Source: the human T2T-CHM13v2.0 reference genome, Homo sapiens. From it: DNA of 64,000 nt. The DNA lies in assembly GCF_009914755.1 (NCBI RefSeq), contig NC_060935.1; one strand, 5' to 3'. The notes beneath the pieces are model-generated. The model saw only the letters and a list, made by a program, of their open reading frames with translations. It did not search any database and was not told where the DNA came from. This document shows positions 1 through 57,179 of the stretch, piece after piece. Position 1 is the first letter of the stretch, and each line of letters begins with the position of its first letter. The position numbers and the translations under genes are program-made.

Positions 1-804
1 CGGCCAGCCGCCCCGTCCAGGAGGGAGGTGGGGGGGTCAGCCCCCTGCCCGGCCAGCCGCCCCATCAGGGAGGTGAGGGGCACCTCTGCCTGGCCGCCCC
101 TACTGGGAAGTGAGGAGCCCCTCTGCCCGGCCAGCCGCCCGGTCCGCGAGGGAGGTGGGGGGGTCAGCCCCCAGCCCAGCCAGCCGCCCCGTCCGGGAGG
201 TGGGGGGCGCCTCTGCCCGGCCGCCCCTACTGGGAGGTGAGGAGCCCCTCTGCCCGGCCACCACCCCATCTGGGAGGTGTGCCCGGCAGCTCATTGAGAA
301 CGGGCCATGATGACAATGGCGGTTTTGTGGAGTAGAAAGTGGGGAGAGGTGGGGAAAAGAGTGAGAAATCAGATGGTTGCCGTGTTTGTGTAGTAGGAGG
401 TAGACATGGGAGACTTTTCATTTTGTTCTGTACTAAGAAAAATTCTTCTGCCTTGGGATCCTGTTGATCTGTGACCTTACCCCCAACCCTGTGCTCTCTG
501 AAACATGTGCTGTGTCCACTCAGGGTTAAATGGATTAAGGGCGGTGCAAGATGTGCTTTGTTAAACAGATGCTTGAAGGCAGCATGCTCGTTAAGAGTCA
601 TCACCACTCCCTAATCTCAAGTACCCAGGGACACAAACACTGCGGAAGGCCGCAGGGTCCTCCGCCTAGGAAAACCAGAGACCTTTGTTCACTTGTTTAT
701 CTGCTGACCTTCCCTCCACTATTGTCCTGTGACCCTGCCAAATCCCCCTCTGTGAGAAACACCCAAGAATGATCAATAAAAAATAAATAAATTAAAAAAA
801 AAAA
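1..804 (+). mobile_element. SVA retrotransposon, 3' part (VNTR + SINE-R + poly-A)
   Basis: GC-rich VNTR units (CCGGCCAGCCGCCCCGTCCGGGAGG; GAGGAGCCCCTCTGCCCGG) to about 290, HERV-K-derived SINE-R, AATAAA at 775-780 and an A-tail. Confidence 0.97.
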
Positions 805-1970
805 GCTACAAGAGTATGTTATAACTCAATGCAAGGAAGCTAAAAATCATAATAAAACATTGCAAGAGCTGACAGACAAAATAGACACTACAAGAATTTC
901 ATAATGTAAACACAAGTATTAATAACAAAATAAACCGAGCAGAGGAAAGAATCTTAGAGCTTGAAGACTGGCTTTCTGAAAAAAGACAGGCAGACAAGAA
1001 TAGAGAGAAAAGAATGAAAAGGAATGAACAAAACCTCCAAGAAAATAAGGGATAATGTAGAGACTGGATCTATGACTGATTGATGTACCTGAAAGATATG
1101 GTTGGTTCTATGCAGAGAACAGAACCAATCTGGAAAACATATATCATGGTATCATCCATGAGAACTTCCTCAATATAGTGAGGGAGACCAACATTCAAAT
1201 TCAGGAAATGCAGAGAACTCCAGTAAAATACTCTACAAGAAGATCATCCACAAGACACACAATCATCAGATTCTTCCAACACCAATATGAGGAGAAAAAC
1301 ATATATTAAAGGTAGTGAGAGAGAAAGGCCAAGTCATGTACAAAGGGAAGCCCATCAGACTAACAACAGACCTCTCAGATGAAATACAACAAGCCAGAAG
1401 AGACTGGAGGACAATATTCAATATTCATAAAGAAAAGAAATTTCAAACCAGAATTTTATATCCAGCCAAACTAAGCTTCATAAGTGAAGGAGAAACACGA
1501 TTCTTTTTAGACAAGCAAATGCTGAGGGAATTTGTTACCACCAGACCTGCCTAACAAGAGCTCCTGAAGAAGGCACTAAATATGGACAAGAAAGACCATT
1601 ACCAGCCACTACAAAAACACACTGAAGTACACAAACCAGTGACACTATAAAGCGACCACATAAACAAGTTGACAAAATAACCGGCTAACATGATGATGAC
1701 AGGATCAAATACACACATATCAATATTAATCTTAAATGTAAAAGTGACAAGCTGGATAAGGAACCAAGACCCACCAGTATGCGGTCTTCAAGAGATCCAT
1801 CTCACATACAATGACATACACAGGCTCAAAATAAACAGATGGAGAAAAATCTACCAAACAAATGGTAAACAGAAAAAAGCAGGGGTTGCAATCCTACTGT
1901 CTGGCAAAACAGACTTTAAACCAACAAAGATCAAAATAGACAAAGTAGGGCATTACATAATGATAAAGGG
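805..1970 (+). mobile_element. L1 fragment (ORF1 through ORF2 endonuclease start), host of the SVA
   Basis: ORFs 1315-1554 (YKGKPIRLTTDLS...YPAKLSF) and 1690-2016 (MTGSNTHISILILNV...KKAGVAIL) are L1 ORF1/ORF2 remnants. Confidence 0.9.
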
Positions 1971-5435: not shown

Positions 5436-5555
5436 TTGATGTATGCCATATGGATGAATTTAAACAGTTTCGGCCTTGCAATAATTGGTATACTTCTAAT
5501 TGCATGTGAAATTATACTCTTTTTAACGAAAGATGAAACTATTCAGTGGCCACAT
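5436..5555 (+). pseudogene. MS4A-family TM3 exon of an upstream MS4A (pseudo)gene, possibly MS4A19P
   Basis: ttgtatctattccag|...|gtaagt, 120 nt, phase 0/0, open: LMYAIWMNLNSFGLAIIGILLIACEIILFLTKDETIQWPH. Has the MS4A TM3 pattern MN....GI.L...E and is collinear with exon 52285-52404. Confidence 0.85.
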
Positions 5556-23704: not shown

Positions 23705-24149
23705 TCATCTTCTTTCAAAGCAGCAGTGTCAAGCCAGTTGGTAAGATCCACAGCTGCTGTTGAGATCCAAGTGCTGTCTGTGGGAGCTCATTCTGAGCTG
23801 TGCATGGGCATGTGTGGGGTACTATTCAAGGTGGGGTTCCCAGGGTGCTAGGAGAATGTGTTGGCTATTTGGGAAGCCCTCTGACAAGTCATTCTGCAGG
23901 GTTTATGGGCAGGCCTCTTGGCGGAGTTCAAGAGCTGGTTATCCCAGTGGAATATGTTTGTAATTGCAGTGGAATGTGTTTGTAAAACATCTTTGGTTTT
24001 CAAAGTTCTGCAGCATGAGCATATGAGGTACCTGAGCAGGTATCATCTCCACTCTACAAAAGAATAAACTGAGGACCAAAGGATTTAAGTGCAGTGCTGT
24101 ACCCACCACATCTTGCAGAGGATTCTAAGTGGCAAGGAGCTTCTGACAA

Positions 24150-24800
24150 TGATGCTGCTTCTAAGCGGGGGTGTGTCTGGGGTTAGCAGTGGGGCCACCA
24201 CGTGATCAATCCGCCGACAGATCAAGCACAGCCTCTTCCTCCTGGGTGCGCCAGGCCCAAGGACAGAGGATGATGCCCACGCAGCCAGGAAAGAGCGGCA
24301 TCATTGTCAGCCCCTACCCCACCCTCGTCTTGGGAGCCTGCAGGCTCCGCGGTGCCACGGGAGCCCCACCGCACCTCACGTATCCGCGCGAGTCTCTAGC
24401 ACAGCCCCGCTCTTGGGCGTTAGAACCCCGCGAGGGGGGATGAAGGACGCCACCGAGGAAGCAGACCCCACCGGGCTCCCGAGGCTGCCAGGCCCCCCGC
24501 TGAGGGCGCTGCCTGCAGAACCACGCCCCCCTGTCCCTGTGCTAAGAGGGTGACGCGAGTGCCCGAAGCCCTGGCCTGGTTACCATTCGCGACTCCCTCG
24601 TCCTGGGTTCTCCCATTGCCAGGAATGTTTTACTAGTAACCATGGTATAGTTGAGACGATCCACTCTTGTCCTACGCATTTCGGCACAATACAGGCGTCT
24701 AGGAGGCTTACCTGGCATTGCCTGAGAGAATCTTCCATCCATTTAAGTAAGTAAACACCAGCGGGGCTGTTGGCCTTGTGAGTTGTGGCACCGTGAAAAA
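24150..24800 (+). promoter_or_regulatory. CpG-rich promoter-like island with probable non-coding first exon ending at 24746
   Basis: The only non-repeat CpG-dense segment in the window. GC-box CCACGCCC 24521, half-CRE TGACG 24551, X-box-like 24579 and 24636, donor TAA|gtaagt at 24747. Confidence 0.65.
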
Positions 24801-26059: not shown

Positions 26060-26750
26060 GTTAGAGGTGACATCAGTGAAAATGGCACAGTGGGGAACAC
26101 CAAGCAATTAATAAGCTGGAAAAAACTTTCAGAAGCAACATTCTCACAACTCTGAAAATTAACGAAAACTTGCAGCAACCAAGGGATGCTTGATCAAGAA
26201 AACACAAGGAAATGTTGGAAACAGATTTTTGTGACATTTTAATTTATCCTAGTCTCATTTCCCACTCCCCAGCTCGTCAGTGCCCTTGAATAAAACAGCC
26301 TTCATTCTCTGTATAGGTACCCAGTAACAGAGGGAGCAAAGCAAATCTTATCCTCAAAGAACTGCAGCTGCTTGTTAGATCTACCTGGTGGTTCCATAGA
26401 GAAACTGCTCAGAGAACCTGCCTTTACCTCGCCTAAAACAGAACTATCCCGGAGCTCAGGTAAGCAGTGGCATTTGTCAAAAACATGTAAAGGAAAAAAC
26501 ATAATAGTCATTGATTTCTGAGGCAAGGAATAATGGTTGGGACAAATAATAGACTAACTGAAAAGTTTGGGAGAAAAGGCCAGGGAATGAGATGCTTTGA
26601 GTAACAAACTCCCACATATTTCTGATAATCTAGAAGGCCACAGACATGCCCTGGGCTAGACACATGCTCAGAAAAGACCTGAAAACATCCTAAGGTCTCA
26701 CCTTCGGATAATGTTCAGACTCTGCACAAGTAGGAAGTAAAGGATAAGCA
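26060..26750 (+). mobile_element. Old L1M 5' end fragment
   Basis: Resembles the L1M 5' region also seen at about 57.6-58.6 kb. Confidence 0.55.
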
Positions 26751-30838: not shown

Positions 30839-30933
30839 CAAAGGAGTCCATTCATCCTCTATAACTGCTATACAATATCTCTGTTAAAATGCTGAGAAGA
30901 TTTATCCTAAAAGAAGGCACCAAAGCAATGGGG
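30839..30933 (+). pseudogene. MS4A first coding exon (ATG 30889; MLRRFILKEGTKAMG)
   Basis: ttgttctctatatttctctatag| acceptor, upstream in-frame TAA, AAAATG start, GGG|gtaagg donor; resembles the MS4A pre-TM1 'FLKxExKxLG' motif. Confidence 0.85.
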
Positions 30934-34938: not shown

Positions 34939-35876
34939 TTTTACATAATCTCAATACCAGAACAGAAACCCATATATTCCCTATGAACATGAATTTTAAG
35001 GTAATCTGATTGAAGTAGCTTTAATTCACTTAAAACTACCTAAATAGATCAGAAAGAAAGAATGGGCACCAGGGGATAAAGTAGTTGCAGGGCAGATGAT
35101 GTTGGGTTTTAATCTCCAATACGGCCCCTTCGGTGGTTGCACACATCCTAGTCACTGGTGTGCGCAGGTGGCTCTACTCCGGCTGGAAAATAAAGCCCAG
35201 CTCCAAGCAGGCCCCAGAGAACCACTTCACATAAGAGCTATAGAAAACCAGGAGTCACTAGAGGGCCTGCTTGCCTGCTTTTTTGAACAAGGTCTAGAGC
35301 TGTGATCCAGATTGGTTACAAAGGTCAGCACTGGTTGCAGGAGCAGGCAGAGCAGAGAGAAACTGAGGTCCAAGTCACAAACAAGAGAGGATGAGGGAAG
35401 TAAGGCAAGATCAAAAGTTCCTATTTGGGATTCACAGTGGAGAACAAGAGCTGAGTCTACAGGCTGGAGCTGGCCTCAGAGAACCAACCATGGGACGGAG
35501 ACAAATATCAAGGAGAACCTTAAGGATCCTCAGAGCCAACAGCTCTCCTTTTGTTGTGTGTCCTGGGCCAAACAAATAGGCCTCTGCTTTTTACTTAACT
35601 AGAACCAACTAGAAAAATAAATATTAGTTGTCTCTAAAGGTTGCTATGAAACAAAAGCAAATACTCCCTGTTTAAATACATGAGGAGACCGCACCACCTA
35701 ACTGTGGCTGCCATTTCTCTATTCAGCCTGCTTTCTCTCTGACACACAATTCTTTCACTACTGCTTCAGAAGTACCAGGGTAAAGCAAACATTCTCCTAA
35801 CCTCTCAGTCACCCAGACTGTAATCATCTGTGGTAGATTTGACTTGAGTAATAATGTTGGCTCTCTCTTCTCACAG

Positions 35877-36020
35877 GCTGTGCAAATAATGATTGGCCTG
35901 ATTCACAGTGCACTGGGAACTCTCTGAATTCATTGGATTTTGCTAAGAGAGGATTCAAGTGGTTCTGGTCCTATCCCTATAATTGCTGTAGTAATTTACT
36001 CATTTTTGTCATTATTTTTT
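35877..36020 (+). pseudogene. MS4A TM1-loop-TM2a exon with premature TGA (35925-35927)
   Basis: ctctctcttctcacag|...|gtgagt, 144 nt: AVQIMIGLIHSALGTL*IHWILLREDSSGSGPIPIIAVVIYSFLSLFF; AxQIMIGLIH..LG is the MS4A TM1 hallmark. Confidence 0.93.
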
Positions 36021-37871: not shown

Positions 37872-37925
37872 TTCATCAACTCAGGATCCAGTAGTGTAAT
37901 ACAGAAGCCTGTTACGAGATATAAG
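37872..37925 (+). pseudogene. MS4A short TM2b/intracellular-loop exon
   Basis: tttctatccccag|...|gtatgt, 54 nt: FINSGSSSVIQKPVTRYK (MS4A FIxSGS motif). Confidence 0.92.
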
Positions 37926-43929: not shown

Positions 43930-44451
43930 ATTATATTTGTCATAGTGATCTGTGATCAGTGACCTTTATGATTATTATATTTGTCATAGTGATCTGTGAT
44001 TGGTGACCTTCGATATTAACATTGTTATTGTTTTGGCATACCATAAACTGTGTCTATATAAGACAACAAATTTAATTGATAAATATGTGCGTTCTGACTG
44101 CTCTACCAACCACACTTACCCTTGTCTCTCTCCATCTCCTTGGGCTTCTCTATTTTCTAATATACAACAACATTGAAATTAGGCCAATTAATTATATTTG
44201 TCATAGTGATCTGTGATCAGTGACCTTTATGATTATTATATTTGTCATAGTGATCTGTGATCGGTGACCTTTGATATTAACATTGTTATTGTTTTGGCAT
44301 ACCATAAACTGTGTCTATATAAGATAACAAATTTAATTGATAAATATGTGTGTTCTGACTGCTCTACCAACCATCCTTACCCCTGTCTCTCTCCATCTCC
44401 TTGGGCTTCTCTATTTTCTGAGATACAACAACATTGAAATTAGGCCAATTA
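43930..44451. repeat. 261-bp tandem duplication containing a nested 44-bp duplication
   Basis: Copies 43930-44190 and 44191-44451; ATTATATTTGTCATAGTGATCTGTGAT occurs four times. Confidence 0.92.
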
Positions 44452-46260
44452 ATAACCATACAATGGCCTCTAAATTTTAAGTGAAAAGAAGAGCCACACA
44501 TCTCTCTCTTAAGTCAAAAGTTATAAATGATTAAGCTTATGAGGAAGGCATATAGAAAGGTGAGATAGGCCAAAGTTAATCCTCTTGCACCCAACCATTA
44601 ACATAGGTGTGAATGTAAAGGAAAAATTCTTGAAGGAAATTAAAAGTGCTGCTTGAGTTAACACACAAGTGATAAGAAAACAAAACAAGCTTGTTGCTGA
44701 TGTGGAGAAAGTTTTAGTTGTCTGGACAGATCAAACCAACTACAGCATTTCCTTAAGCCAAAGCCTAATCCCTAGCAAGGCCCTAATTGGCTCTTTTCAA
44801 TTCTGTGAAGACCGAGAGAGATGAAGAAGCTTCAGAAGAAGAGTTTGAAGCTAGCAAGGTTGATTCATGAGGTTTAAGGAAAGAAGTTGTCTCCATAACA
44901 TAAAAATACAAGGTGAAACAGCAAGTGATAATGTAGGAGCTGCAGCAAGTTATCCAGAAGATCTAGCTAAAATAATTGATGAAGGTGGCTGTATTAAACA
45001 ACAGATTTTCAATGTAGATAAAACAGCCTTATATTGGAAGAAGACGTCTTATAGGACTTTCCCAGCTAGAGACAATGCTTGGGCTCAGAGCTTCAAAGGA
45101 CAGGCTGACTCTCTTGTTAGAGGCTAATGCAGCTGATGACTGTAAGTTGAAGCTAATGCTCATTTACTATACTGAAAATTCTAGGGCCCTTAAGAATTAA
45201 TCTACTCTGCTTATGGTCTGTAAATGGCATAAGAAAGCATGGATAACAGCACATCTGTTTACAGCATGATTTACAGAATATTTTAAATTCAATATTAAGA
45301 ACTACTACTCAGGAAAAAAAGCTTCCTTTTAAAATATTACTGCTCATTGACAGTGCACCTGGTCACATGTGTTTTCATGTCTGTTAACATAACATCCAAT
45401 TTGCAGTGATGAATCAAGGAGTAATTTGTACTTTCAAGTCTTGTTATTTAAGAAATACATTTTGTAAGACTACAGCTGTCATAGCTAGTGATTCCTCTGA
45501 TAGATCTCGGCAAAGTAAATTGAAGAGCTTCTGGAAGATTCACCATTCTAGATGACATTAAGAGCATTAATGACATACAGGAGGAGGTCAAGATAGCAAC
45601 ATTAGCAGGACTTTGGAAAAAGTTGATACTACCTCTCATGAATAACTTTGAGGGGTTCAAGACCTCGGCGGAGGAAATCACTGCAGATGGGATGGAAATA
45701 GCAAGAAGGGAAGCCTGAAGATGTGACTGAATTGCTGTAATCTCCTGATAAAACTTTAATGGATAAGGAGTTGCTTCTTATGGATGAGTAAAGAAAGTGC
45801 TTTCTTCAGGTGGATTCTACTCCAGTGAAGATGCTATGAACATTGCTGAAATGACAATGAAGAATTCAGAATATTACATAAGCTTAGTTGATAAAGCACT
45901 GTCAAGGTTGGAGAGGATTGACTCCAATTTTGGAAGAAGTTGTATGGTGGATAAAATGCTATCAAAAAACATTGCATACAACAGAGGAAACTTTTGGGAA
46001 AAGAAGAGTTGATGGGTGCAGCAAACTTCATGTTATCTAATCTTAAGAAATTGCCACAGGGACCCCAACCTTCAGTAAACACCACCCTAATCAGTCAGCA
46101 GCCAACAACATCAAGGCAAGACCCTCCACCAGCAAAAACATTACAGCTCACTGAGGCTTAGGTGATCATTAGCTTTTTTTAGCAATAAAATATTCTTAAA
46201 TTAAGTACATTTTTAGACATAAAGCTATTGCACACTTGCACACTTAATAGACGACAATAA

Positions 46261-46574
<314 letters not shown>

Positions 46575-46689
46575 AGCATAACTTTTATATGCATTGGGAA
46601 ACTAAAAAATTCATCTGTTACGTTATTAAAGTATTCATTTTATTGCAGTGGCCTGAATCTGAACCTGCAATATCTCCAAAGTATGCCTG

Positions 46690-51600
<4,911 letters not shown>

Positions 51601-52284
51601 AAAAATAATAATGCTGTACACTTAATTCTATAAATAATTTATTAGAATTTTTAGGAACATAGATACCTTCTTAAGTGATCCTGGTTCATAAGCCTCTCTA
51701 TCCTCATTAATGGACATAGGATAAGTGTGCAGAGGCATTCTAAGCATACCACAATCTGACTTTGTACTAAGGATGAATCTTTTTAGTTGACAACTCCAGC
51801 AGCATAGTTCTACATATTCACAAAGCTAAAATTGAAAATCCTAATCACAATATACTAGATTATTCCTCCTTTAGTATGCCATGTATTAAATGTATTATTT
51901 ATACATGACTAATACATATATGTATTAATACATGACATGTATTAAATGTATTAAATGTATTAAATTTTATTAAATGAAATTGTGCTTGTAATTATATCTC
52001 CCCCATTAGATTAAAAGCTCCTTGAGTAGAAACCTGAGGTTTAGTACATTGTAGGCATTGTATAATTAATGAATAAATAAATATTCCCTCTGAAAAAAAA
52101 ATTATCCTACTAGCTTCTAGACAAATTTGAGGTGGACTCCTGATATCAACCTCTGTGACAATCAAAGAAAGTCAGATTTTTAAAACTTTAACTTGAATGT
52201 TCTAGCCAGTAGGACAGACTGATTGCTTCAGCAACATCTGTTTATGCTGTCCATAACCAATTTTTCTTTGTATGTCTATTACAC

Positions 52285-52404
52285 CTTACTTTAGCAATTG
52301 TAATGAACAGCATAACTATTTGTGTGACTACACTTGGTATAATTCTATTAAGCATGGAGATTGCAACTTTTGCATTAAATGCAACCACATACAATTGGTC
52401 AAAC
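52285..52404 (+). pseudogene. MS4A TM3/extracellular loop 2 exon with mutated acceptor (AC instead of AG)
   Basis: tttttctttgtatgtctattacAC|...|gtaagt, 120 nt open: LTLAIVMNSITICVTTLGIILLSMEIATFALNATTYNWSN. Confidence 0.92.
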
Positions 52405-52619: not shown

Positions 52620-53500
52620 TAAACCTCAAAGAGAGATTAAAATTATCGTTAAGATAAAATGATAGAATACTTAGAAACCCCAAAGACCTACCTGAAAAAC
52701 AACTGCAGAAGTCAAACAGTTTAGAGAGGTGGCTGGACAAAAGAAAAACCTGCAAAAATTAATAGATTGTCTTTACACTAGAAATAACCACTTAAATATT
52801 GAAATTTTTAAAAAAATCAAAATAACAGCAAAACTATAAATGTTTAATAAGAAGCATTTTAAAAGGACTGAATACTTTGAAAAATTATGTTCTTGAATGC
52901 GAATTTACAAAATCATAAAATTGCAAGTTTCTGCAAATTAACACATAATTGTGATGCAATTCCATTTAGAATCTCAACAGCATTTCGGAAGTCATGCAAT
53001 AAAATTACTCTAAAATGCATATAGATAGATGAATAATTGCATAAAAATGCCAAGAAAGTCTAGAAGTTACATAGTGATTGAGGAGGATCAGATAATTTGC
53101 TGCACTAGATATTAAAACTTGTTATTAGGCTATTATAATAAAAATAGTACAGTATTTACACACTAAAAGGAAAATTTAACTAAGCACAGAATAGAGAGTT
53201 GAAAAATAAATCTAAGTATAAGTGAACACATATTATTTTGTAGGTGATAACATGACCAGTCAATAGAGAAAAGATGAAATTGGAAAAAAACAGTATTAAA
53301 TCAATAAGCTATTGATTTCCAAGAAAATAATAATGGACACCTACTTTGTACCACAAATAAAAATAAATCACAGATGAAGTATGTGTACATAAAAACCATT
53401 AAAATTAGCATAAAATATAGAACTAATATATTATTTACATAAGCAACAGAGAAAACCAAGAAGGAGGAAAGATAGAAAGACATTTTATGTCACAAATATT
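52620..53500 (+). mobile_element. Very old L1 (L1ME-like) ORF2 fragment
   Basis: A-rich degenerate L1 ORF2 motifs. Confidence 0.55.
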
Positions 53501-53539: not shown

Positions 53540-56500
53540 TAAAGAGTTAAAATACTGCCCCAGTGGGCTGAGGGAGTGGGGTCCCCACCCCAGGGTGACA
53601 AAGAATAGGGCTGTCCCCTAGCTGACTCAGAAGACAGAACCACAGAGGATTATCCTCAGGCCTCAAAAATCTAACAAAATTTTCTCTATTGGGTTTTGGA
53701 CTTGCTTAGGTCTGCTGCCCACTTCTTTCTTTCTTATTTTCTCTATTGGAAATCGAAATGACTATCCTCTGCCAGTCCCACCATTGTATTTTAGAAGTAG
53801 ATTACTAGTTTTCTGGCTTCACAAGTCCACAGATAGTGAGGAATTTTTGCCCCAAGATGAATCATGCTATAAGTGATGATTTCTAGCATGAATCTAGATG
53901 CTATAACTGATTTAGATGATGAGATTTGAGGATTTTTGATTTTATAATATTTAGGAAAAGTTTGGACATAGAGTTGATTCTAGAGTGGGTTACAACTTTC
54001 GGAGATGTTGAAATTAGCTGAATATATTTTGCACATGGGAAGGACATGAATTGAGGGGAACTAGAGGCAGACTGTTATGGGTTGAATTGTGATACCGAAA
54101 CATATATGTTGCAGTCCTAACCCATGGCACCTCAGAATGTGACATTTTGGGGGAATGGGATTATTCCAGGTATAATAAGCTAAATTAAGATGAGGTCATA
54201 CAGGGGTAGGTAGGTCATTAATCCAGTATGATTGGTATTCTTATAAGAGAGAAATTTGGACATAGGTACATAAGGAAGATGGCACTGTGTATTAGTTCAT
54301 TTTTACACTGCTATAAAGAACTGACTGAGACAGAGTAATTTATAAAGGAAAGAGGTTTAATTGACTCACAGTTTTGCATGGCTCGGGAGGTCTCACAAAA
54401 CTTATAGTCATGACAGAAGGCAAAGGAGAAGCAAGTACCTTCTTCACAAGGAGGCAGGAGAGAGAGCAAAAGGGGAACAGCTACAGACTTTTAAACCACC
54501 ATATCTCATGAGAACTCACTCACTACCATGAAACAGCATGGGGGAGCCACTCCCATGATCCAATTACCTCCCACCAGGTCCCTCCCTCAACACGTGGGGA
54601 TTACAATTCGAGATGAGATTTGGGTGGGGACACAGAGCCAAACCATATTATTCCATCCCTGGCCCCTCCCAAACTTCATCTCCTGCTCACATTTCAAAAC
54701 ACAATCATGCCCTCCCAGCAGTCCTCCAAAGTCTTAACTCATTCCAGCATTAATTCAAAAGTCTAAGTTCAAAGTCTCACCTGAGACAAGGAAATTTCCT
54801 TCCACTGAGCCTGTAAAATCAAAAACAAGTTAGTTACTTCCAAGGTACAATGGGGGTACAAGCATTAGGTAAATGTTCCCATTCCAAATGGGACAAATTG
54901 GCCAAAACAAAGGGGCCACAGGTCCCATGCAAGTCTGAAACCCAGTAGGGCTGTTATTAAATTCTAAAGCTTCAAAATGATCTCCTTTGGCTCCATGTCT
55001 CACATCTGGGGTACACAGATGCAAGAGGTGGGCTCCCAAGGCCTTGGGCAGCTCCACCCCTGTGGCTCTGCAGGGTAAAGCCTCTGCAGCTGTTTTCATA
55101 GGCTGATGCTGAGTGCCTGCAGCTTTTCCAGGTGCGTTGTAGAGGCTGTCAGTGGATTTACCATTCTTGGGTCTGGAGAATGGTGGCCCTCTTCTCACGG
55201 GTCTAGTGGGCAGTGCCCCAGTGGGGACTCTGTGGGGGCCTCAACCCCACATTTCCCCTCTGCAGTGCCCTAGTAGAAGTTCTCCATGAGGGCTCCAACC
55301 CTGTCACAGCCTTCTTCCTGGACATCCAGGCATTTTCATACATCCTCTGAAATCTAGGTGGAGCCCACCAAGCCTCAACTCCTGACCTCGGTGCACCCAC
55401 AGGCCCAACACCATGTGAAAGCCACCAAGGCTTGGGGCTTGCTCCCTCTGAAGCAACAGCCCAAGCTGTACCTTGGCCCCTTTTAGCCACAGCTGGAGCT
55501 GGTGTGGCTGGGAAGCAGGGCCCCAAGTCCCGAGACTGCACAGAGCAGCAGCAGGGGCCCTGGACCTGGGCCACAAAACCATTTTTTCCTCCTAGGCCTC
55601 CAGGCCTGTGATGGGAGGGGCTACAGTGAAGATGTTTGACATGCCCTGGAGACATTTTCCCCATTGTCTTGGCTATTAATATTTGGTTCCTTGTTACTTA
55701 TGCAAATTTCTGCAGCTGGCTTGAATTTATCCCCAGAAAATGAGTTTTTCTTTTATACCATGTATCAGGCTGCAAATTTTCCAAATTTCTATGCTTTGCT
55801 TCCCTTTTAAACACAACTTCCAGTTTCAGATAATCTCTTTGCTCACACATATGTGAACACACCTCTAGAAAAAAACAGGTCACCTCTTAAACACTTTGCT
55901 GCTTAGAAATTTCTTCCACCAGATACCCTAAATCATCTCTCTCAAGTTCAAAGTTCCACAAATCTCTAGGGCAGGGCAAAATGCCACCAGTCTCTCTGCT
56001 AAAGCATAGCAAGACTGACCTTTGCTCCAGTTCCCAAAAAGTTCCTCATCTCCATCTGAAACCACCTCAGCCTGGACTTCATTGTCCATATCACTATCAG
56101 CATTTCAGTCAAAAGCATTCAACGAGTCTCTAGGAAGTTCCTAACTTTCCCACATCTTCCTGTCTTCTTTTAAGCCCTTCAAACTCTTCCAACTTCTGCC
56201 TATTTCCCAGTTCCAAAGTTGCTTCCACATTTTCAGGCTATCTTTATACCAGTACCCCACTCCTGGTACCAATTTCCTGTGTTAGTCCATTTTCACACTG
56301 CTATAAAGAGCTGCCTGAGACTGGGTAATTTATAAAGTAAAGAGGGTTAATTGGCTCACAGTTTCACATGGCTGGGGAAGCCTCAGGAAATGTACAATCA
56401 TGGCGGAAGGCAAAGGAGAAACAAGTACCTTCTTCAAAAGGAAGCAGGAGAGAGAGAGTAAAGGGGGAACTTCCACAGACTTTTCAACCATCAAGTCTCA

Positions 56501-57058: not shown

Positions 57059-57179
57059 ATGGTTGGTATGATGCTTTTACAATATTTACTACTCTGCACC
57101 ATCTTAGAGATGACCATTGTAATCATAATCATCCAGTGGGTTGTAAGAGCATTTCATCATGAAAAACACACTGAAGAAA
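57059..57179 (+). pseudogene. MS4A TM4 exon
   Basis: ttttttattcag|...|gtgagt, 121 nt: MVGMMLLQYLLLCTILEMTIVIIIIQWVVRAFHHEKHTEE+1 nt; LL...ILE TM4 motif. Confidence 0.92.

What the first reader, a model, noticed from the sequence alone, without database searches (positions are those of the whole stretch)
35925..35927. Single nonsense codon in TM1 (probable TGG>TGA) in an otherwise unbroken frame
Across 161 codons there is one stop and no frameshift, which suggests recent inactivation (inference). TGA is one transition from Trp, plausible at the end of a TM helix. The stop lies far upstream of later junctions, so the transcript should be NMD-sensitive or look non-coding. The context TGA-ATT is not the TGA-CTAG readthrough motif.
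Basis: partly seen in the sequence, partly recalled or inferred. Interest (0 to 1): 0.75.

Follow-up and report, generated by a model that had tools for sequence, protein, structure and literature searches.

The report
Dead MS4A20 gene inside LINC00301
The human "non-coding" RNA gene LINC00301 hides a broken copy of MS4A20, a likely testis membrane-protein gene with whole predicted proteins in orangutan, marmoset and mouse; its stop codon is tryptophan in the chimpanzee model, but a second break at a splice site likely disabled the gene earlier.

Summary
The TGA at 35925-35927 is real. It is codon 32 of a six-exon, 185-codon frame (161 codons in the window) that matches a predicted orangutan protein at 95.7% and groups with rodent Ms4a20. 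Chimpanzee, orangutan, marmoset and mouse-lemur models all have Trp there, so TGG>TGA arose on the human line. It is not the only lesion: the TM3 exon's acceptor reads AC (52283-52284) where both neighbouring paralogues read AG. The chimpanzee model keeps Trp32 but leaves out exons 4-6, and no full-length chimpanzee, gorilla, gibbon or Old World monkey protein appeared in three searches. So the gene likely lost function before the human-chimpanzee split, with the stop as a later hit (inferred; no ape DNA seen). A rough neutral model gives only about 1.2 lesions over the whole time since the orangutan split, so one stop does not show recent loss. LINC00301 is likely a read-through of two dead MS4A paralogues and skips the stop exon. 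This is an unannotated unitary pseudogene; I found no description in nine literature searches. Fixation in humans was not testable.

The parts
35925..35927 (+). Nonsense codon TGA, codon 32, in TM1; Trp in chimpanzee, orangutan, marmoset and mouse-lemur models
30889..30933 (+). Coding exon 1 (ATG and N-terminal tail, 15 codons); 3' part of LINC00301 exon 30839-30933
35877..36020 (+). Coding exon 2 (TM1, loop, first half of TM2; 48 codons); skipped by the RefSeq LINC00301 transcript
   Evidence: hub annotation
37872..37925 (+). Coding exon 3 (second half of TM2, 18 codons); a LINC00301 exon
52283..52284 (+). Broken splice acceptor of exon 4: AC where both paralogous TM3 exons have AG (second lesion)
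52285..52404 (+). Coding exon 4 (TM3, 40 codons, open frame, GT donor); not in the RefSeq transcript
57059..57179 (+). Coding exon 5 (TM4, 121 nt); not in the RefSeq transcript. The sixth and last coding exon, with the natural stop, lies just past the window end at 64070-64143, in the last LINC00301 exon
   Evidence: last exon
46649..46678 (+). Human counterpart of the intron-3 exon that the chimpanzee model uses in place of exons 4-6 (AG acceptor, 9 of 10 residues equal)
23937..24496 (+). GC-rich 560-nt block, 92.5% identical to the LINC00301 5' end; likely this gene's own promoter or first exon (inferred)
5436..5555 (+). TM3 exon of the upstream paralogue (gene A), a LINC00301 exon; serves as the AG control for the broken acceptor

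Best explanation
This is the human copy of MS4A20, a four-helix CD20-like gene likely active in testis, carrying two breaks: a TGG>TGA stop that arose on the human line, and an AC in place of the exon-4 splice acceptor that likely came first, before the human-chimpanzee split. Shown: exon structure, both lesions, orthology, Trp in four primate models, single copy in the human genome search. Inferred: the acceptor loss removed TM3 or shifted the frame (the nearest downstream AG, at 52295, shifts it), constraint ended, and the stop then drifted in as a second hit. What is still transcribed is LINC00301, a likely read-through that starts at the upstream paralogue's promoter and joins leftover exons of both dead genes, skipping all three large transmembrane exons of MS4A20. 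The lost protein likely worked like other MS4As, as a membrane adaptor or channel-associated tetraspan of post-meiotic germ cells (by family analogy; untested).
For: Identity: 95.7% to orangutan P0001 and 81.1% to marmoset P0003 over 185 positions without gaps. P0001 passes Pfam CD20 (31.0 bits, cut-off 27.9). Its model has four helices, pLDDT 84.8, and the top 9 PDB matches are FceRI-beta and CD20 chains. The human frame sits in a 22-row clade (100/100) with P0044 and P0052, which a source names rat Ms4a20. Mouse P0078 aligns at 44% with no gaps over 157 residues. Lesions. Order: chimpanzee P0106 has W32 but ends after exon 3 in an intron-3 exon. Searches returned full-length primate proteins only from orangutan, marmoset and mouse lemur. 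Against orangutan, 5 differences map to the human side, 1 to the orangutan side and 2 are ambiguous; about 5.8 missense changes are expected on a neutral lineage (rough). Testis: mouse 1700017D01Rik is listed with a testis fold-change value of 11.4 over non-reproductive tissue (PMC7436996 supplement row; that this symbol is Ms4a20 is recalled). LINC00301 is among seminal-plasma vesicle lncRNAs that predict sperm in testis (PMC9436424 passages).
Against: No ape DNA was seen: the chimpanzee acceptor state is inferred from one predicted isoform (X2), and the other member of its cluster was not shown. Absence of full-length models is weak, because other New World monkeys were also absent, so annotation gaps are common. 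The 5:1 asymmetry is not significant (p = 0.22), and mouse lemur and the wider alignment leave residues 105, 126 and 133 uncertain. An in-frame open AG lies 72 nt upstream (52213) and could rescue exon 4 with a 24-residue insert. The marmoset protein scores just under the Pfam cut-off (26.6) and single human exons give no CD20 hit. No function has been shown for Ms4a20 in anything I read.
Confidence: 0.68

Rival explanations
1. Strictly human-specific loss: chimpanzee still makes the whole tetraspan, and both the stop and the acceptor change arose after the split, the stop possibly first.
For: Chimpanzee P0106 has W32 and S61 where human has stop and L. Exons 4 and 5 keep open frames and good donors in human.
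Against: The chimpanzee model omits exons 4-6. No full-length Pan or Gorilla protein; the orangutan cluster has 1 member sequence. Two lesions where about 0.5 are expected since the chimpanzee split (rough).
Confidence: 0.2
2. The locus still yields a working shorter product: skipping exon 2, or exons 2 and 4, keeps the frame (137 or 97 codons), or translation restarts at a later Met, or the RNA itself is what is selected.
For: Exons 2, 3 and 4 are multiples of three and skipping them leaves open frames. Isoforms lacking single exons are predicted in marmoset, mouse lemur and rat (P0002, P0005, P0052, P0088). An RNA-level role in lung cancer cells is claimed (PMC7466809, passages only).
Against: Such forms lack one to three of the four helices. 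The RefSeq transcript also skips exon 5, which shifts the last exon's frame (75 codons). No sign of constraint on the human line.
Confidence: 0.08
3. The stop, or the AC, is a segregating null allele or peculiar to this assembly, and some people carry a working gene.
For: Each lesion is one base. No variation data could be searched here.
Against: Two independent lesions 16 kb apart would both have to be absent. The curated RefSeq transcript avoids both affected exons (hub annotation). The chimpanzee model also avoids exon 4.
Confidence: 0.04

Closest known systems
Rodent Ms4a20 (rat models P0052, P0044, P0088, P0094; mouse P0078)
   Same: Same clade, gap-free alignment at 44% with mouse, Trp at codon 32, same exon-sized blocks
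   Different: Rodent frames are open; the human one has a stop and a broken acceptor and has no MS4A gene row in this window's annotation
MS4A19P (annotated human pseudogene, 14-45 kb upstream)
   Same: Neighbouring paralogue with the same exon plan and Trp at the matching place
   Different: A separate clade. Its four transmembrane exons are open; the ATG exon was not found. It is already annotated, this gene is not
CD20 (MS4A1) and FceRI-beta (MS4A2)
   Same: Pfam PF04103 and four-helix fold (TM-score 0.60-0.66 to the three best FceRI-beta chains; profile E 1e-21)
   Different: About 20% identity, very short N-terminal tail, likely testis rather than immune expression
Unitary pseudogenes and lncRNAs born from lost coding genes (PMC2864566, PMC5577775, PMC10195156)
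   Same: A transcribed relic of a single-copy gene that is coding in other mammals
   Different: Not named in the parts of those papers I could search; here one lncRNA is stitched from two dead tandem paralogues

Membership tests
MS4A / CD20-like family | Pfam PF04103 above the curated cut-off | tested here: met
   Orangutan orthologue 31.0 bits against 27.9; marmoset 26.6, just under. Single human exons gave no CD20 hit; the joined human frame was not scanned
MS4A / CD20-like family | Four membrane helices with the CD20 / FceRI-beta fold | tested here: met
   Helices 9-39, 48-71, 79-113, 119-161 in the orangutan model; top 9 PDB matches are FceRI-beta or CD20
MS4A / CD20-like family | Position in the 11q12 cluster, with the paralogues' exon plan | tested here: met
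   Between MS4A19P and MS4A8, same strand (hub annotation); 144-nt TM1 and 120-nt TM3 exons match the paralogues
MS4A / CD20-like family | Membrane adaptor, channel or receptor activity | not testable with these tools
   Family analogy only
MS4A20 orthologue | Groups with rodent Ms4a20, apart from MS4A19 and gene A | tested here: met
   22-row clade, 100/100, midpoint root only; names
MS4A20 orthologue | Conserved gene order with mouse chromosome 19 | not testable with these tools
   No mouse DNA on hand; the order is recalled only
Unitary pseudogene | Disabling lesions in the coding structure | tested here: met
   TGA at codon 32 and AC acceptor
Unitary pseudogene | No working copy elsewhere in the genome | tested here: met
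   Of 14 matches to P0001 genome-wide, the 5 best are this locus and the 6th is MS4A19P; the rest have E 0.1 or more (the tool gives lower bounds)
Unitary pseudogene | Intact orthologue in outgroups | tested here: met
   Open 185-aa models in orangutan and marmoset, 203 aa in mouse lemur, 209 aa in mouse; all are predicted models
Unitary pseudogene | Lesions fixed in the species, no protein made | not testable with these tools
Human-specific gene loss | Gene whole in chimpanzee | tested here: inconclusive
   Chimpanzee model has W32 but lacks exons 4-6; chimpanzee DNA not seen

The most novel reading that the evidence does not exclude
Humans alone lost a conserved sperm-cell tetraspan, MS4A20, that chimpanzees still make in some form. 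It was the last step in the collapse of a three-gene testis MS4A block (MS4A19, gene A, MS4A20) on our lineage, one member cut by an SVA-linked deletion, and the wreckage was spliced into the cancer-associated lncRNA LINC00301.
Probability: 0.2. Interest if true: 0.72.

Novelty: new member of a known kind. Interest (0 to 1): 0.5.

Why it matters
It adds a gene loss that the annotation misses: a locus called a lncRNA and studied as one in lung cancer and azoospermia is the relic of a mammal-wide MS4A gene. Three adjacent, likely testis-expressed MS4A genes all look disabled in humans while at least this one is whole in orangutan, which makes recent change in hominine sperm-membrane proteins testable, with a mouse orthologue available for knockout. 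It also shows that counting stops in a hand-spliced frame can misdate a loss when a splice lesion is missed.

Tried and rejected
Chance frame: rejected by 95.7% identity to the orangutan protein. Stop read-through or selenocysteine: the context is TGA-ATT, outgroups have W or C, and exon 4 would still lack its acceptor; no SECIS search was run. Minor-class intron ending in AC: intron 3 begins GTATGT, not the recalled U12 5' site. Single-exon scans of Pfam and PDB sequences gave nothing useful; only full-length orthologues did. A crude splice-site scan listed exons 2 and 3 and gene A's TM3 exon among 11 candidates but missed exons 1, 4 and 5. The Atlas feature search on P0001 put an MS4A12-like cluster first (0.91), but its structure search gave no MS4A row. 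A motif at -57573 thought to be the MS4A19P ATG exon did not look like one. The Lemur catta model P0006 reads exon 2 in another frame, a hint of a separate loss or a bad model; left out of the Trp count and of the tree. Earlier scan findings were not available. The ape-genome paper's supplement (PMC12058530) was an unreadable PDF, and a paper on MS4A chemosensors was not held under the id I tried.

Full report
Observation. The TGA is at 35925-35927 on the + strand, followed by ATT. It lies in a 144-nt exon, 35877-36020. A self-search of the window found a 120-nt exon at 52285-52404 by likeness to the LINC00301 exon at 5436-5555 (34% identity), and reading on gave a 121-nt exon at 57059-57179. 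With the ATG part of LINC00301 exon 30839-30933 and LINC00301 exon 37872-37925, these give 161 codons with one stop, at codon 32, and no frameshift. A last exon at 64070-64143, taken from the own genome, brings the frame to 185 codons and a natural stop.

What the gene is. The fifth exon as query returned 3 proteins among 4 candidates: a 185-aa orangutan model and two marmoset isoforms. The human frame equals the orangutan protein at 177 of 185 positions and the marmoset at 81.1%, without gaps. The orangutan protein passes the Pfam CD20 cut-off (31.0 against 27.9 bits); the marmoset falls just short (26.6). A model of it, from a 45-sequence alignment, has four helices and mean pLDDT 84.8. Its top 9 PDB matches are FceRI-beta and CD20 chains, only 1 with E under 0.001; a profile search finds the same two proteins only (8 sequences). 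A search of cluster representatives gave 70 relatives. In a tree of 49 of the 73 proteins then held plus three human frames, the human gene sits beside orangutan in a 22-row clade (100/100, midpoint root), apart from the MS4A19 and gene A groups; the 24 left out were mostly fragments and alternative isoforms, and P0006. Two rows of that clade, P0044 and P0052, are named rat Ms4a20 by a source, and more Ms4a20-named proteins appear among the 56 hits. Mouse P0078 aligns at 44% without gaps. A genome-wide search with the orangutan protein finds only this locus strongly. So this is the single human MS4A20 orthologue.

The stop. At codon 32, 26 of 45 clade proteins that I chose for having the TM1 exon have W and 19 have C. 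Among named records, primates, rodents and pika have W; carnivores, pangolin, camel and warthog have C (names). The chimpanzee model P0106 has W. Trp has one codon, so the change is TGG>TGA, G>A at 35927, on the human line after the chimpanzee split. These are predicted models, but they show W, not X. MS4A19P has W at the matching place too.

The missed lesion. The bases before exon 4 end in TACAC, while gene A and MS4A19P end in TCCAG and TGCAG after the same TCTAT stretch. The other 9 splice dinucleotides are canonical. Intron 3 starts GTATGT, so it is not a minor-class intron by the recalled consensus. The nearest downstream AG (52295) shifts the frame and stops within a few codons; an AG 72 nt upstream (52213) keeps it open with 24 extra residues; skipping the exon removes TM3.

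Order of events (inferred). The chimpanzee model is 94 aa: exons 1-3, then a short exon whose human counterpart lies in intron 3 at 46649. It shares the P2L change with human. Three searches gave full-length primate proteins only for orangutan, marmoset and mouse lemur, and the orangutan cluster has one member sequence. The simplest reading is that exon 4 was already unusable in the human-chimpanzee ancestor. This is indirect: other New World monkeys are missing too, and the second member of the chimpanzee cluster was not shown. Against orangutan, 5 differences fall on the human side (including the stop), 1 on the orangutan side and 2 are ambiguous (p = 0.22). A rough neutral model with recalled divergence figures expects about 5.8 missense changes and 1.2 disabling lesions per lineage since the orangutan split, and 0.5 lesions since the chimpanzee split. 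Two lesions and no frameshift therefore do not demand a very recent loss.

How LINC00301 relates. By the hub annotation it uses exons 5436-5555, 26317-26459, 30839-30933 and 37872-37925 in the window. The first is the TM3 exon of an upstream paralogue, gene A, whose ATG exon lies at -1844..-1797. Taking that exon as LINC00301 exon 2 gives 851 nt over seven exons, near the 864 bp and 7 exons stated in PMC7466809 (passages). That transcript would hold a 95-codon gene A remnant frame and, downstream, a 75-codon frame from MS4A20 exons 1, 3 and 6. It skips the stop exon and both TM3 and TM4 exons. Gene A's TM1, TM2b and TM4 exons were not found with 13 gene A-type proteins as queries nor genome-wide. 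A 560-nt GC-rich block at 23937-24496 is 92.5% identical to the LINC00301 5' end and has only these two copies; it is likely MS4A20's own promoter. So LINC00301 is likely a read-through over two dead paralogues.

Likely former function. Mouse 1700017D01Rik and 1700025F22Rik are in a supplement table of PMC7436996 with testis fold-change values of 11.4 and 9.2 (12 of 15 files searched, rows seen); their identity with Ms4a20 and Ms4a19 is recalled. PMC11895168 lists 1700017D01Rik with Crisp2 and Prm1 among changed genes in mouse testis cells (one passage). LINC00301 is among seminal-plasma vesicle lncRNAs that predict sperm in testis (PMC9436424, passages) and in a cluster table of a human spermatogenesis study (PMC4750114, one passage). 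A review lists neighbour MS4A13 as testis-expressed and does not mention MS4A19 or MS4A20 (PMC11663944, passages). A germ-cell membrane adaptor or channel partner is the likely role, by analogy only.

What is in print. Nine full-text searches (listings and abstract starts seen; one search listed 20 of 118 papers) gave no paper linking LINC00301 to MS4A. One search found 4 papers for six gene names, with MS4A19P and Ms4a19 in none. No LINC00301, C11orf64 or MS4A string was found in the supplements of PMC5577775 (4 files), PMC10195156 (1 file; main text passages) or PMC6886504 (2 files not searched), nor MS4A or C11orf64 in the main text of PMC2864566 (supplements not searched). The supplement of PMC12058530 was unreadable. 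Of PMC2826416 I read part 1 of 5. Genome-alignment loss catalogues, GENCODE, HGNC, subscription papers and bioRxiv supplements could not be seen and may already record this loss.

Verdict. The claim of a single, recent inactivating hit is only partly supported, because a second lesion exists and is likely older. The finding is a new member of a known kind, an unannotated unitary pseudogene beneath a named lncRNA. Interest 0.5; about 0.7 if ape genomes show the gene whole in chimpanzee (probability about 0.2).

Noticed in passing
window -1575..806 (L042 into window 1-806): A full-length SVA-like element (hexamer head, VNTR, poly-A; family recalled from its layout) sits in gene A, 220 nt after its ATG exon. 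No target-site duplication was found, the left flank is unique intron and the right flank starts inside an L1-like repeat. It may mark an insertion-linked deletion of gene A's TM1 and TM2b exons.
   Followed up: partly
window -1844..-1797 and 5436-5555: A third MS4A paralogue (gene A), with its own clade of full-length relatives such as P0030 and P0037, survives in human as two open exons only; it has no MS4A row in the annotation.
   Followed up: partly
window 23937-24496 and -7664..-7108: Two promoter-like copies are 92.5% identical although the TM3 exons of the two genes are only about 34% alike in protein; this suggests later gene conversion between the promoters.
   Followed up: partly
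window -44748..-14410 (L038-L041), MS4A19P: The four transmembrane exons of MS4A19P are open with AG acceptors, and a Met lies early in the TM1 exon as in MS4A13; only the ATG exon was not found and the TM1 donor looks weak. Its pseudogene status may deserve a second look.
   Followed up: partly
P0006 (Lemur catta model); window 35048-35305: This model reads exon 2 in another frame and starts with a stretch like human intron 1: a possible separate loss in that lemur, or a wrong model.
   Followed up: no
window 26315-26464: The LINC00301 exon here is read as a coding tail in unnamed protein P0046 (90% identity), whose N-terminus equals gene A's.
   Followed up: no
window 43930-44453: A tandem duplication of about 262 nt, 96.6% identical, in intron 3.
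   Followed up: no
window 52692-52749 and 54781-54810, - strand: Exons of the antisense lncRNA LOC105369321 lie 0.3 and 2.4 kb from the TM3 exon; their splice sites are canonical.
   Followed up: no
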